DNA of 64,000 bases from Minisyncoccota bacterium (GTDB lineage Bacteria > Patescibacteriota > Minisyncoccia > Phycocordibacterales > JBAYGS01). The notes beneath the pieces were generated by a model, which was not told the DNA's origin, did not search any database, and saw only the letters and a list, made by a program, of their open reading frames with translations. The position numbers and the translations under genes were made by a program. Where the stretch lies: the NCBI GenBank assembly GCA_041666545.1, contig JBAYGS010000002.1:106395-170394 (forward strand), written 5' to 3'. Within the stretch, counting starts at the first letter, position 1, and each line of letters opens with the position of its first letter. Positions 6,350 through 63,241 of this stretch are shown here, one piece after another.

Positions 6350-6423
6350 CTATTCGTGTGCCCTATTCGTAAGGGTTCTTAACTGTCTTTATATTCGTAT
6401 GCCCTATTCGTAAGGGTTCCTAA
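6350..6423 (+). promoter_or_regulatory. tandem pair of the 33-34-nt ATTCGT direct-repeat motif (TATTCGTGTGCCCTATTCGTAAGGGTTCTTAAC)
   Basis: Two copies at about 6350-6382 and 6390-6423, between RNase P RNA and the 6473 gene. The same motif recurs at 25415, 45625 and 63168/63208. Confidence 0.5.
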
Positions 6424-6472
6424 CTTGTTTTATGCCCCGTATCTAATATAATTAAGCCATTATTGATAAGTT

Positions 6473-8557
6473 TTGAGGCCCATGACAACTATAAAAATTA
6501 ATACTCCTGGCTCGACTCCGGTAGCGAGCTCGAGTCGTCCTCTACCTTCGCCGAAGTCTTCATTTTTGGAGAAGATTTCTTATCTTCTGATTATTGCCGC
6601 TTCGGTTTTGAGTTTGTTGGTCCTAGCACCTCTGCCTTTTGTCTCCCAAAACTCTCTTAAGGTTAGTCTGGTCGCTTGGCTAGTTGCCCTGGCTTTTTGT
6701 CTTTGGATTGTCGCCAGACTCAAAGATGGCGTGTTGGTGACTTTCAAGCACCCGATTTTCTGGGCCTTCGGGGTTTTGGCGCTGGTCTATCTGGTCTCTA
6801 CTTTCGCCTCGTCGGCCTTCCTAACTTCTTTTATCGGATTGGGGAATGAAACCGAAACTTTTGCTTTCGTTTTGATTCTTATAATTCTCTCGATGCTCAC
6901 CGCCTTTTTGTTCCGTCGACCAGAGCGCATGTTTTACTTTTACGGCTCGATTTTCACCGTTTTTATTTTGGTATCTATTTTCCAATTTATCCGTTTGGCG
7001 GAAATTGTTTTCAACTTCAGTTTAATTAAGCTGTCTTTCCTTAGTACCATTACCGTAAATACCATCGGCTCATGGTTCGACTTCGGAGTCTTCTTTGGTT
7101 TGGTGGCGGTAGTCTTGCTCTCAACTATCGAAATGTTTAAGCTAAAACACTTCGCTAAGATTTTGGTAGCACTCGCCATCTTAGTCGCCTTGTTCTTCTT
7201 GGCCCTGGTTGATTTCGCTTTAGTTTGGTGGTGCATCGGTATTTTTGCCTTAATGCTTCTGGTTTACAGCATTTCCTTTGGTGGCGGAGCGCTCTCGTTT
7301 CGATCGTCTGAAGCCACGCCTCTCGGGGCCGAGGTGGCTACGGTCAAGACTCCGAAGATAAGCTTGCCGAGGCGGATTCCGATTATCCCGCTTTTGGTAA
7401 TGGTGATAACCTTGGTTTTTATTATTGGCGGCAAGCCGATTGCCGGCGCCTTGGCCGATCGTTTCAGTATTAAAAGTCTGGATGTTAGGCCAACGATGAT
7501 GGCTACTTTGTCACTTGCCAAGTCCAGTGCAGGAGCCAGCCAATTTTTCGGTGTCGGTCCAAACCGATTTTTCTCAGCCTGGGTTTTGAACAAGCCGGCT
7601 GAAGTCAATCAGACTGCTTTTTGGAATAGCGACTTTAATTCTGGCTACGGCTTGATCCCGACTGCCATGGTGACGGTTGGCGCTATCGGTACTTTGGCTT
7701 GGCTGTTCTTCTTGCTGGTCTTTGTTTATCTCGGTTATTCGGTTTTGAGTTTACCAATTGGTAATCAACTTAATCGCTATCTCACGGTTTCGTCATTTTT
7801 CGGTTCGCTTTACTTGCTGGTGATCTTGATTGCTTACACACCGGGGGTTTCGATTGTGACTTTGGCCTTTATCTTCTTCGGTCTGTTTGTTGCCTCAGCC
7901 TCGCGTGAGGGCGCAATCTCGATTGGTGCAGTCTCTTTGGTGGAGAAGCCGAAATCGAGCTTTGCTTATGTCTTTGTTTTGGTTTTGGTTTTTATCGCCA
8001 CGATCGCTTTGGGCTATCTTTATGCCGAACGATTTGCTTCCTCGATTTATTTCAATCAGGGTATCACGGCCTTTGGTGGCGGAGACTTTGATCAAGCTGA
8101 AAGTGGAGTCGCTAAAGCGGTGGCCTTGAGCCGAAACGATCTTTACTACCGATCGCTGGCCGATGTTTATTTGGGCAAAATGAATAATTTGGTGTCTGGC
8201 AAAAAAGTCACCGGTGAAGAGTTGAGGACACGATTCCAAGCTCTGCTGGGCCAGGCGGAGGCCGTGGCGCTTGAGGCGGTGAAGCTTGACCAGGGTAATT
8301 ATCAAAACTGGCTGTATTTGGGAAGAATTTATGAGACGATTATGCCGACCAATATTGCGAATGCTTATGAGAATGCCAAGTCTGCTTACAATCAAGCTTT
8401 GACCCTAAATCCGAATAGTCCGATGGTCATGGCCTTCCTGGGTCGCCTTGAACTTGGTCGTGGCAATCGCTCCGAGGCCAGAGATTTTCTTAACAAAGCT
8501 CTTCTGGCCAAGCCGGATTACTCTGACGCGCAATCGCTGTTAAATCAGTTAAGATAG
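6473..8557 (+). CDS. large polytopic membrane protein with C-terminal TPR repeats (possibly O-antigen-ligase/Wzy_C-like)
   Basis: More than 10 predicted TM helices followed by TPR-like repeats (YYRSLADVYLGKMN..., NWLYLGRIYETI..., AFLGRLELGRGN). Domain family not certain. Confidence 0.4.
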   Translation: MRPMTTIKINTPGSTPVASSSRPLPSPKSSFLEKISYLLIIAASVLSLLVLAPLPFVSQNSLKVSLVAWLVALAFCLWIVARLKDGVLVTFKHPIFWAFGVLALVYLVSTFASSAFLTSFIGLGNETETFAFVLILIILSMLTAFLFRRPERMFYFYGSIFTVFILVSIFQFIRLAEIVFNFSLIKLSFLSTITVNTIGSWFDFGVFFGLVAVVLLSTIEMFKLKHFAKILVALAILVALFFLALVDFALVWWCIGIFALMLLVYSISFGGGALSFRSSEATPLGAEVATVKTPKISLPRRIPIIPLLVMVITLVFIIGGKPIAGALADRFSIKSLDVRPTMMATLSLAKSSAGASQFFGVGPNRFFSAWVLNKPAEVNQTAFWNSDFNSGYGLIPTAMVTVGAIGTLAWLFFLLVFVYLGYSVLSLPIGNQLNRYLTVSSFFGSLYLLVILIAYTPGVSIVTLAFIFFGLFVASASREGAISIGAVSLVEKPKSSFAYVFVLVLVFIATIALGYLYAERFASSIYFNQGITAFGGGDFDQAESGVAKAVALSRNDLYYRSLADVYLGKMNNLVSGKKVTGEELRTRFQALLGQAEAVALEAVKLDQGNYQNWLYLGRIYETIMPTNIANAYENAKSAYNQALTLNPNSPMVMAFLGRLELGRGNRSEARDFLNKALLAKPDYSDAQSLLNQLR

Positions 8558-8582
8558 GTGAGGGGGTAACCTAGGGACTGTA

Positions 8583-62790: not shown

Positions 62791-62801
62791 CAGGAAGCAA
62801 A

Positions 62802-63023
62802 TCACTCATAATCGATTTGGTGGGTGACCAAAATGTAGGACGGTCGCTTTTTCGTATCGATGTGGTTCGGGAACCTTGAAGCCTCAACGATAGTTTTCAT
62901 ATCGGAGATTTTGGCCTTCAAATTGGCGATTTCCTTTCTGGTCCTCAGGTGGTCCAGTGCACCAAGGGTCAAAATCAAAAGGATGAGGACATAAATGGCG
63001 GCAATATCGTTTCGGTTTTGCAT
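62802..63023 (-). CDS. small bitopic membrane protein, FtsL/DivIC-like (hypothetical)
   Basis: TM helix followed by a short coiled-coil (RTRKEIANLKAKISDMK). Confidence 0.3.
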   Translation of the reverse strand: MQNRNDIAAIYVLILLILTLGALDHLRTRKEIANLKAKISDMKTIVEASRFPNHIDTKKRPSYILVTHQIDYE

Positions 63024-63084
63024 AAAATAAGAACAGGTTTTCTATCTTAACTATACGAATTTAATTCAAGAAATCAATAGCACA

Positions 63085-63241
63085 CGACACAAATACACGA
63101 ATGAGGACGAATGACACGAATAGCTGAATTCGTGTGTGCGTATTCGTGGTTTCGCTATGCGCATACCTTATTCGTGTGCCCTATTCGTAAGGGTTCTCAA
63201 CAGCTTTTTATTCGTGTGCCCTATTCGTAAGGGTTCTCAAC
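63085..63241 (+). promoter_or_regulatory. dense cluster of ATTCGT/ACGAAT half-sites including a tandem pair of the 34-nt motif (63168-63201, 63208-63241)
   Basis: ACACGAATGAGGACGAATGACACGAATAGCTGAATTCGTGTGTGCGTATTCGTGG...TTATTCGTGTGCCCTATTCGTAAGGGTTCTCAAC x2, upstream of the ftsL-like/rpsA operon on the minus strand. Confidence 0.5.

What the first reader, a model, noticed from the sequence alone, without database searches (positions are those of the whole stretch)
6350..63241. 33-34-nt motif with 13-bp-spaced ATTCGT direct repeats recurs upstream of unrelated genes: candidate regulon operator
TTATTCGTGTGCCCTATTCGTAAGGGTTCT(T/C)AAC occurs as tandem pairs at 6350-6423 and 63168-63241, and as single or 1.5 copies at 25415-25447 and 45625-45680. 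It always lies in intergenic regions, 10-150 nt upstream of a start codon. In three of the four loci it has the same orientation relative to the downstream gene: the GT2 gene at 25432, the MFS transporter at 45715, and the ftsL-like/rpsA operon. The internal TATTCGT-N6-TATTCGT architecture resembles response-regulator or winged-helix direct-repeat boxes. At 63085-63160 at least six further ATTCGT/ACGAAT half-sites cluster in both orientations. This reads as a transcription-factor regulon signature, or a promoter-embedded mini-repeat, not yet assigned to any regulator.
Basis: seen in the sequence. Interest (0 to 1): 0.6.

Follow-up and report, generated by a model that had tools for sequence, protein, structure and literature searches.

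The report
Dispersed intergenic repeat, not an operator
The 34-base motif is real, but it looks like the conserved core of a small repeat element that has been copied into the gaps between genes of some groundwater Paceibacteria (candidate phyla radiation), rather than the binding site of a regulator controlling a set of genes.

Summary
The window has six full copies of TTATTCGTGTGCCCTATTCGTAAGGGTTCTYAAC, one partial tail and a six-hexamer cluster, against zero expected by chance. All lie between genes.

The operator reading is poorly supported. I found the same core, at least 94% identical, at about 22 further intergenic loci. They come from Paceibacteria/Nomurabacteria contigs with 36-53% GC whose coding DNA does not match the window's in blastn.

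In about half of these loci the core sits at the apex of a 110-135 nt imperfect palindrome. Its ends are CGACACYAAT...ATTGGTGTCG and its arms are ACGAAT/ATTCGT sub-repeats. This palindrome is wedged between cistrons at a different junction in each contig: secE-nusG, rplX-rplE, rpsL-rpsG, rplF-rplR, groES-groEL. Arms also occur without the core, and cores without arms.

Window 63080-63205 is 96% identical to an element that has unrelated flanks in another contig.

Orthologous loci show gain and decay:
- Copy B is a 43-nt insertion at the GT2 start codon. It is flanked by an ATGA duplication and is absent from two syntenic relatives.
- Copy A is mutated in one relative and decayed in another, while the promoter stays intact.

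Position and orientation relative to promoters vary. Best reading: a new family of MITE/BOX/ERIC-like modular intergenic repeats. Some co-opted regulatory role is not excluded.

The parts
6350..6383 (+). Core copy A1 (F orientation), first of a tandem pair with a 41-nt period
   Evidence: 1 mismatch; nhmmer 46 bits
6391..6424 (+). Core copy A2. It ends directly at a putative -35 TTGTTT (6425-6430), followed by a 16-nt spacer and -10 TATAAT (6447-6452) of the TPR-MurJ-LepA operon (ATG 6482)
   Evidence: An orthologous copy sits at the same place in L034; L033 has a decayed remnant; L035 has none
6286..6316 (+). Intrinsic terminator after the RNase P RNA gene (5825-6281), 33 nt upstream of A1
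25410..25452 (-). Copy B: a 43-nt insertion (core 25415-25448) flanked by a direct ATGA duplication (25406-25409 and 25453-25456). The ancestral ATG (25406) now opens a 16-codon uORF that runs through the repeat. Its TGA stop overlaps the present GT2 start (25453)
   Evidence: Syntenic relatives L028 and L029/L030 have a 14-15 nt gap with no repeat
45625..45658 (-). Core copy C (R orientation on the + strand), abutting the T-run of the terminator at 45593-45620
45664..45676 (-). Truncated copy (3' tail only) in tandem with copy C. L010 7146-7198 has the same 'tail + full copy' layout
63080..63167 (+). Arm module of the composite element: terminal CACGACACAAAT, three ACGAAT units, loop AGCTGA, two ATTCGT units and a linker.
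   Evidence: Window 63080-63205 is 96% identical to L014, whose flanks are unrelated
63168..63201 (+). Core copy D1 (exact match to the consensus)
63208..63241 (+). Core copy D2 (exact). On the - strand it follows directly after the T-run of the terminator at 63274-63248
63050..63077 (-). Sigma-70-like promoter (TTGATT, 16-nt spacer, TATAGT) of the small membrane protein/rpsA operon, lying just past the end of the arm module

Best explanation
The 34-nt motif is the conserved core module of a family of small, non-coding, modular repeat elements dispersed in the intergenic DNA of some Paceibacteria/Nomurabacteria (candidate phyla radiation). The full element is a 110-135 nt imperfect palindrome. 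It has terminal inverted repeats CGACACYAAT...ATTGGTGTCG, arms made of three or four ACGAAT/ATTCGT units spaced 9-11 nt apart, and the core at the apex. The core contains a mini-hairpin, CCCT-ATTCGTA-AGGG, followed by the tail GTTCTTAAC. The modules are separable. The window holds solo, tandem and truncated cores (A, B, C) and one composite of arm plus two cores (D). Other contigs hold arms without a core.

Shown: new copies arise by insertion, or duplication followed by insertion, into intergenic DNA. They survive only where they do no harm: between a terminator T-run and the next -35, between cistrons, or at a start codon with the reading frame rescued. Individual copies then decay.

Inferred: the near-identity of copies across hosts reflects selection on what can be copied, meaning recognition of the core or ends by a trans-acting mobilising or recombination protein, possibly with horizontal spread. 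It does not reflect a need for each copy in its place. Effects on neighbouring genes are side effects or occasional co-option. Examples would be a hairpin in an intercistronic mRNA or extra sequence upstream of a -35. None of these effects was measured.
For: Dispersion and identity:
- About 26 distinct intergenic loci carry the core at 94% identity or more.
- Their hosts have 36-53% GC, and ribosomal protein L6 is only 60% identical between two of them.
- Apart from repeats, blastn finds no similarity between the window and these loci.
- nhmmer scores are bimodal: above 27 bits or noise. There is no degenerate tail.

Larger element with sharp ends:
- The boundaries are sharp in an alignment of 11 full elements. 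They fold as long hairpins of -29 to -47 kcal/mol on the better-folding strand when trimmed to the element (-38 to -60 with flanks).
- Window 63080-63205 is 96% identical to L014, whose flanks are unrelated.
- L007 and L021, from one metagenome, carry near-identical 130-nt elements next to different genes.
- Coreless arm elements occur at L040 2339-2443, L021 3434-3551, L026 and L027.

Different junctions of the same conserved operons are occupied in different contigs.

Gain and loss at orthologous sites:
- Copy B is absent from L028 (GT2 79% identical) and L029/L030 (67%) despite conserved synteny, and it is flanked by an ATGA duplication.
- Copy A is mutated in L034, decayed in L033 and absent in L035, while the -10 and 5'UTR are conserved.
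- The rplX-rplE gap holds this element in L008 but a different palindrome family in L037-39 (L5 94% identical) and a third one in L040.
- No copy occurs in about 70 kb from close relatives.

General setting: the genome has many other intergenic repeat and palindrome families.
Against: - No transposase or other mobilising gene was found in the window, and none could be searched for genome-wide.
- A target-site duplication is seen at only one site, and at 4 nt it could be chance. The full palindromes show no consistent duplication.
- Near-perfect conservation of 32 nt across hosts this divergent is unusual for a selfish repeat. It hints at a conserved host factor.
- Placement is not random within gaps. 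The AAC end abuts a terminator T-run within 0-2 nt at five loci, and a -35 within 0-5 nt at five or six.
- Full elements face the downstream gene in one orientation in about 8 of 10 cases.
- Full elements are strongly concentrated in ribosomal-protein, secE-nusG and groESL operons.
- These regularities could mean function rather than tolerance.
- My collection scans forced both ATTCGT hexamers, so the apparent invariance of the hexamers is partly ascertainment.
Confidence: 0.6

Rival explanations
1. Host-beneficial punctuation element. The core, or the palindrome it caps, would be recognised as DNA or RNA by a conserved Paceibacteria factor. It would mark boundaries of transcription or translation units. 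Examples: an intercistronic hairpin that blocks exonucleolytic mRNA decay or directs processing in ribosomal-protein operons, or a roadblock/insulator between a terminator and the next promoter. Copies would spread as repeats but be kept for this function.
For: - In L040 nearly every intercistronic gap of the S10-spc operon holds some palindrome.
- The rplX-rplE gap always holds a hairpin, but of a different family in each lineage.
- The element fills the gap from about 5 nt after the stop codon to 8-13 nt before the next ATG.
- There is an orientation bias of about 8:2.
- The core's AAC end abuts T-runs or -35 elements.
- The core is conserved across divergent hosts.
Against: - Copies decay or are absent at orthologous sites while neighbouring signals are kept.
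- Both orientations occur relative to transcription.
- A solo core folds weakly: -4.7 to -8.4 kcal/mol, z -1.2 to -1.7.
- Only 2 of 32 consensus pairs show compensatory change.
- There is no Rfam match.
- No expression data are available.
Confidence: 0.2
2. Operator or activator site of a transcription factor. A regulator would bind ATTCGT units as direct repeats: two in the core, spaced 13 nt, and arrays in the arms, spaced 9-11 nt. It would control the adjacent promoters as a regulon, perhaps of housekeeping and translation genes.
For: - The ATTCGT units in the arms have near-helical spacing, and in most loci they point toward the downstream gene.
- F-oriented cores end 0-5 nt before a sigma-70-like -35 at window A/L034, L006, L014, L020 and L025.
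- Many neighbours are translation or chaperone genes.
- The window does encode winged-helix (33815-34138) and XRE-type (40619-41359) proteins.
Against: - The position and orientation relative to promoters vary.
- Copies occur in mid-operon gaps, in a 3' region between convergent genes (L016) and at a start codon.
- Orthologous promoters lack the site or carry a decayed one.
- Copies are identical over 32-34 nt rather than degenerate.
- In copies not selected for the hexamers, the mutated positions are the hexamers plus the G next to the first one, while GCCCT and AAGGGTTCTYAAC stay intact.
- The spacers between hexamers are also largely complementary: 58% paired against 88% for the hexamers. 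The arms are therefore true palindromes.
- Other palindrome families in the same operons are built from unrelated sub-repeats.
- Both HTH genes sit in a low-GC defence/antitoxin island.
Confidence: 0.12
3. Nut-like antitermination signal. The hairpin followed by GGUUCUUAACAA would be a boxB-boxA pair that loads NusB/NusE onto RNA polymerase in highly expressed operons.
For: The tail resembles E. coli rrn boxA, UGCUCUUUAACAA, at 9 of 13 positions (my own comparison from memory, not a tool result). It follows a small hairpin. Many hosts of the element are ribosomal operons.
Against: In about 8 of 10 operon copies the boxA-like strand is antisense to the genes. In the window, copies A lie upstream of the promoter and so are not transcribed with the gene. 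Copies C and D are antisense. No rRNA leader was available for comparison.
Confidence: 0.02

Closest known systems
Pneumococcal BOX elements (modular boxA-boxB(n)-boxC intergenic repeats)
   Same: Short, non-coding and strictly intergenic. Modular, with separable modules and variable numbers of internal sub-repeats. Outer modules pair into a long hairpin. Dispersed at many loci next to unrelated genes. No transposase of their own. (Comparison from my general knowledge.)
   Different: No sequence similarity and a different phylum. Here the most conserved module is a 34-nt apex that also spreads alone and in tandem. Here the core is nearly identical across very divergent hosts.
ERIC / other MITE-like imperfect palindromes (Correia, RUP, RPE); reviewed in PMC3184786
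   Same: An imperfect palindrome of roughly 110-135 nt with terminal inverted repeats. It lies in transcribed intergenic regions of operons. Presence or absence varies at orthologous sites. Assemblies break at copies (L037-39).
   Different: Target-site duplications are not evident for the full element, and only one 4-nt case exists for a solo core. No autonomous parent is known. In classical MITEs the ends are the conserved part, whereas here the centre is at least as conserved as the ends.
REP / REPIN elements mobilised by RAYT transposases (PMC3733652)
   Same: A unit of about 35 nt containing a small hairpin. Intergenic, often right after terminators. Found singly, in tandem or in inverted pairs (L020 has an inverted pair).
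   Different: The stem is only 4-5 bp and not G+C-rich throughout. The consensus has no GTAG or CGTC tag at the end. No RAYT gene was seen. Density is much lower, about 1 locus per 16-20 kb.
Response-regulator direct-repeat boxes (e.g. Pho box type)
   Same: Repeated hexamers in direct orientation. Some copies sit just upstream of a weak -35.
   Different: Spacing in the core is 13 nt rather than 10-11. The position is not fixed. The site is not conserved at orthologous promoters. Identity extends over the whole 34 nt.

Membership tests
MITE (miniature inverted-repeat transposable element) | Short (<300 bp), non-coding, multi-copy | tested here: met
   Elements of 34-135 nt. About 26 distinct loci. 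No ORF within them.
MITE (miniature inverted-repeat transposable element) | Terminal inverted repeats | tested here: met
   The full elements have CGACACYAAT...ATTGGTGTCG ends. The solo cores in the window have none.
MITE (miniature inverted-repeat transposable element) | Target-site duplication | tested here: inconclusive
   ATGA is duplicated around copy B when compared with empty orthologous sites. No consistent duplication flanks the full palindromes.
MITE (miniature inverted-repeat transposable element) | Presence/absence polymorphism at orthologous sites | tested here: met
   Locus B. Locus A. The rplX-rplE gap.
MITE (miniature inverted-repeat transposable element) | Autonomous partner element with the same ends encoding a transposase | not testable with these tools
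   No transposase in the window.
REP/REPIN | G+C-rich palindrome of 20-40 nt with a GTAG or CGTC tag at one end (PMC3733652) | tested here: not met
   The stem is only CCCT/AGGG. The consensus reads CGTAAGGG and ATTCGTG, with no GTAG or CGTC tag. Only variant B happens to read GTAG.
REP/REPIN | Associated RAYT (Y1 transposase) gene | not testable with these tools
   None in the window.
Transcription-factor operator / regulon | Fixed position and orientation relative to the promoter | tested here: not met
   At A the copy abuts the -35 in F orientation. At C it is R-oriented and ends 10 nt before a weak -35. At D it is R-oriented and more than 90 nt upstream. At B it is at the start codon. Copies also lie mid-operon and between convergent genes.
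Transcription-factor operator / regulon | Conservation of the site at orthologous promoters | tested here: not met
   The site is absent in L028, L029 and L035, decayed in L033 and mutated in both hexamers in L034.
Transcription-factor operator / regulon | A cognate DNA-binding protein | not testable with these tools
   The only HTH genes in the window (33815-34138 and 40619-41359) lie in a defence/antitoxin island. No binding data exist.
Known structured RNA family (Rfam 15) | Match to a covariance model | tested here: not met
   No hit on the elements at the gathering threshold or at E<=1.
CRISPR / TIGR-type arrays | Many repeats alternating with variable spacers of about 20-40 nt | tested here: not met
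   At most two copies per locus, separated by 6-7 nt.

The most novel reading that the evidence does not exclude
The 32-nt core (mini-hairpin plus GGGTTCTTAAC tail) would be the recognition site of a conserved, still unknown Paceibacteria protein or ribonucleoprotein. This factor would punctuate gene expression in these streamlined genomes. It would sit directly after terminator T-runs and directly before -35 elements, and it would cap intercistronic hairpins in ribosomal-protein, secE-nusG and groESL operons. On this reading the repeat family is a domesticated, lineage-wide system for delimiting or processing transcription units rather than junk.
Probability: 0.15. Interest if true: 0.65.

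Novelty: new member of a known kind. Interest (0 to 1): 0.35.

Why it matters
Practical value comes first. A motif that looks like a regulon signature in one 64-kb window is shown to be a dispersed repeat, so it should not seed regulon reconstruction.

Second, candidate phyla radiation genomes are usually described as streamlined. Here they carry several families of intergenic palindromes and short tandem repeats, some wedged between ribosomal-protein cistrons. My paper searches turned up no description of this.

These repeats break assemblies, move start codons (locus B) and could serve as strain-typing or insertion-polymorphism markers.

A 32-nt sequence kept across hosts of 36-53% GC points to a conserved recognising factor. 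That factor would be worth finding.

Tried and rejected
- Known RNA family: Rfam at the gathering threshold on the window, and at E<=1 on four element-bearing loci and the window's 3' extension, gave nothing on the elements.
- boxB-boxA/nut site: rejected because most operon copies are antisense.
- CRISPR or TIGR-like array: at most two tandem units with 6-7 nt between them.
- tRNA T-arm mimic: the R-strand loop UACGAAU resembles UUCGAAU, but position 55 is wrong and the stem has 4 bp. I did not pursue this further.
- DNA uptake sequence: the density of about 1 per 16-20 kb and the strictly intergenic location do not fit.
- Phage origin: a scan of viral contigs with the stem-plus-tail pattern gave one chance hit inside a phage gene.
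- Internal promoter in the gene-proximal arm: a -10-like TA(A/G)ATT sits 14-20 nt before the ATG, but by eye I found no -35 or TG extension.
- RNA-level covariation: only 2 of 32 pairs are compensatory. The F strand folds better in 7 of 10 elements, but the G-T pairs responsible are shared by descent, so this does not identify a functional strand.
- Literature: no hit for the sequence, nor for MITE-type repeats in CPR/Patescibacteria.
- Target-site duplications around the full palindromes: none consistent.
- Other hits to the search pattern: the Spirochaetales hit (L003) and L005 are high-GC chance matches.
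Full report
**1. Observation**

The motif is real. With up to three mismatches, TTATTCGTGTGCCCTATTCGTAAGGGTTCTYAAC occurs six times: 6350-6383+, 6391-6424+, 25415-25448-, 45625-45658-, 63168-63201+ and 63208-63241+. None of 100 dinucleotide-preserving shuffles gives a match.

A truncated copy holding only the 3' tail lies at 45664-45676. 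The hexamer cluster at 63055-63147 consists of four ACGAAT and two ATTCGT.

All copies are intergenic. ORFs of at least 100 aa cover about 83% of the window.

I call the strand as written above F and its complement R.

- The GT2 gene starts at ATG 25453, as shown by a 100% match to an NCBI 'Candidatus Paceibacterota' protein. Copy B therefore ends 5 nt before the start codon.
- The MFS gene most likely starts at ATG 45724, 8 nt after a TATAAT (read).

**2. Where the window comes from**

The window is part of a 194-kb metagenome contig, ENA ERZ27249449 k141_1294488. Database names and gene content place it in Paceibacteria/Parcubacteria of the candidate phyla radiation.

The 18 kb flanking the window on that contig holds no further copy. 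That gives about 4 loci in 82 kb.

**3. The motif elsewhere**

I scanned for ATTCGT-N3-CCC-N-ATTCGTA-N-GGG.
- Among species-representative genomes this found one true hit, in a Ca. Nomurabacteria MAG (L004), and one chance hit.
- In JGI metagenomes it found 23 loci. All but one (L005) are genuine: the unforced positions also match, including the TTCTTAAC tail.
- An HMM built from the copies found four more copies that have changes in a hexamer or beside it: L010 7166-7198, L020 4153-4186, L025 316-348 and L034.

HMM scores are bimodal, either 27 bits or more or noise.

After removing duplicate contigs there are about 26 distinct loci, and every one is intergenic.

The hosts are divergent. GC ranges from 36 to 53%. 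Ribosomal protein L6 is 60% identical between two hosts and S12 is 79% identical between another pair. Apart from repeats, blastn finds no similarity between the window and these loci.

**4. The motif is the core of a larger modular element**

In about half of the loci the core sits at the apex of a 110-135 nt imperfect palindrome. From left to right on the F strand this consists of:
- a terminal CGACACYAAT;
- three or four ACGAAT units spaced 9-11 nt apart;
- the core;
- TATTCGTGTCATTCG and further ATTCGT units;
- a terminal ATTGGTGTCG.

With flanks, the F strand folds at -38 to -60 kcal/mol. Trimmed to the element it folds at -29 to -47 kcal/mol. The boundaries are sharp in an 11-sequence alignment.

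The arms are true palindromes. Hexamer positions are 88% paired and the remaining positions 58%. Covariation is weak, however: 2 of 32 pairs show compensatory change.

The modules are separable. Arm-only elements with unrelated apices occur at L040 2339-2443 (directly before rplC), at L021 3434-3551, and in L026 and L027.

In the window, 63080-63205 is 96% identical to L014 over about 125 nt, while the flanks are unrelated. This stretch comprises the terminal repeat, three ACGAAT units, a loop, two ATTCGT units, a linker and a core.

**5. Context**

Full elements lie between cistrons of housekeeping operons, at a different junction in each contig:

| Locus | Junction |
|---|---|
| L004 | secE - nusG |
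| L008/L023 | rplX - rplE |
| L009 | rpsL - rpsG |
| L021 | upstream of rpsL |
| L012/L018/L024 | upstream of rplJ |
| L026/L027 | rplF - rplR |
| L013 | groES - groEL |

The upstream stop codon is about 5 nt from one end of the element. The next ATG is 8-13 nt from the other end. About 8 of 10 elements are R-oriented relative to the genes.

Solo cores occur in three kinds of place:
- Between cistrons: L025 has one between rpsH and rplF and one between rplR and rpsE.
- With the AAC end abutting a terminator T-run within 0-2 nt: window C and D, L010, L016 and L020. In L016 the copy lies between convergent genes, next to ddl.
- With the AAC end 0-5 nt from a sigma-70-like -35: window A and its ortholog L034, L006, L014, L020 and L025.

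Within the window the geometry relative to promoters differs at every locus.

**6. Orthologous comparisons**

Locus B. Relatives with conserved synteny have only 14-15 nt between the divergent start codons and carry no repeat. These are L028 (GT2 79% identical) and L029/L030 (67%); in each the GT2 gene and the upstream divergent ~580-aa gene are kept and a GT4 gene follows GT2. The window carries a 43-nt insert at 25410-25452, flanked by ATGA at 25406-25409 and 25453-25456. The old ATG now opens a 16-codon uORF that runs through the repeat, and its TGA stop overlaps the present ATG (read).

Locus A.
- L034 (TPR protein 74% identical) has the copy at the same place next to the same TTGTTTT...TATAAT. 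Both hexamers are mutated: TCGCATGCCCTATTTGTAAGGGTTCTTAAC.
- L033 (80%) has a decayed remnant with the tail deleted.
- L035 (47%) has none, and has a better -35.
- The -10 and 5'UTR are conserved in all of them.

The rplX-rplE gap. L008 has this element. L037-39 (L5 94% identical) have a different, A/T-rich palindrome family, and L040 (79%) has a third.

About 70 kb from the relatives L028-L032 holds no copy.

Copies are therefore gained, individually dispensable, and decay where they sit.

**7. Interpretation**

These properties match a family of non-autonomous dispersed repeats of the MITE/BOX/ERIC kind. That kind is described in PMC3184786, and the REP-type relatives in PMC3733652.

The operator model fails on three counts: fixed geometry, conservation at orthologous promoters, and degeneracy. 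In the four copies found without forcing the hexamers in the search, the changes fall in the hexamers and the adjoining G: ATTCGC, ATTTGT, ATTTGC, and GTG to ATG after the first hexamer. GCCCT and AAGGGTTCTYAAC are never changed.

The genome also carries many other intergenic repeat families.

Some things remain unexplained by a purely selfish reading:
- the near-identity of the core across very divergent hosts;
- the preference of the AAC end for T-runs and -35 elements;
- the orientation bias;
- the concentration in highly expressed operons.

I therefore keep a 'domesticated punctuation element' rival at 0.2 and the operator reading at 0.12.

Shown: dispersion, modularity, insertion and decay at orthologous sites, and variable promoter geometry. 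Inferred: the mobilisation mechanism, recognition of the core by a trans-acting factor, and any effect on expression.

**8. Novelty and score**

There is no Rfam family. The held literature has no match to the sequence and no description of such repeats in candidate phyla radiation bacteria.

This is a new member of a known kind of element. It matters mainly as a caution for regulon inference and as a marker of unexpectedly repeat-rich intergenic DNA in streamlined genomes. Interest: 0.35.

Noticed in passing
window 13792-13812, 15537-15620, 17632-17680, 20310-20350, 20554-20580, 33310-33343, 52885-52915, 58330-58352, 62681-62738; array at 51556-51723: Heptamer tandem repeats GTAGTGR (complement YCACTAC) recur in at least 10 intergenic regions, including the 5' region of rpsA. 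A 14-nt-period array (TATCTACTTACTAC, 9 copies) lies at 51556-51723. This family is more abundant than the ATTCGT motif and may be a 5'UTR element.
   Followed up: no
window 55409-55516; L025 1755-1865; L037-L039 1-100: An A/T-rich long palindrome family (GAAAATGTAAATCTCAAAA-TGAAAATGACA...TGTCATTTTCCATTTTGAC) is 76% identical between unrelated intergenic gaps of different organisms. In L037-39 it occupies the rplX-rplE gap that holds the ATTCGT element in L008.
   Followed up: partly
L040 1-17300 (Ga0209515_10000713): Almost every intercistronic gap of the S10-spc ribosomal-protein operon holds a palindrome, and several are built from 8-nt sub-repeats (AAAGTCCA...). A HicAB toxin-antitoxin pair plus another gene and a terminator are inserted between rpsJ and rplC. 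A protein-kinase gene sits between rplB and rpsS.
   Followed up: partly
window 1743-1781, 5217-5255; L025 737-773, 2165-2205: GGTATA-type short repeats (GAAGGTATAAGGTA...TATGGTATA) recur in intergenic gaps and are shared with another organism's rplF-rplR gap.
   Followed up: no
window 32096-41359: A low-GC (33-39%) island lies next to tRNA-Glu (33538-33610), and a 52-nt near-duplicate of the tRNA 5' part sits at 33342-33393. The island holds an ArsR-like winged-helix gene, RadC, an OLD-family AAA/TOPRIM nuclease, a MutH-like endonuclease with a C5 cytosine methylase, and an XRE-SocA antitoxin. A LAGLIDADG-domain ORF (32096-33304) lies just upstream.
   Followed up: partly
window 63290-64000 (continues in L001 7000-9300): More than 700 nt has no convincing ORF and no Rfam match, yet it ends in a strong - strand intrinsic terminator (63274-63248). 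It may be an unannotated RNA or a set of very small genes.
   Followed up: partly
window 20851, 33804, 34109, 44840; 43855 and 45090; 58275, 61315, 62741; 39935 and 41762: Several families of near-identical terminator-like palindromes recur after unrelated genes, for example ATTCTAGCTTTTTGCAAAAAGCTAGAATAGAGAA and AGCCCCGACGCTTTGTCAGACAAAGGTCGGGG. A 57-nt repeat that includes a start codon also recurs.
   Followed up: no
window 45710-45726: The -10 TATAAT of the MFS gene ends 8 nt before ATG 45724, which suggests a leaderless or nearly leaderless mRNA. The divergent 585-aa and GT2 genes of the relatives have only 14-15 nt between their start codons, so their promoters must lie inside each other's coding regions.
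   Followed up: no
L041 4066-9931 (contig just upstream of the window): A serine recombinase, a PIF1-type helicase and DUF2326/MC6/MC7-type genes form a probable mobile or defence island immediately before the window's first gene.
   Followed up: no
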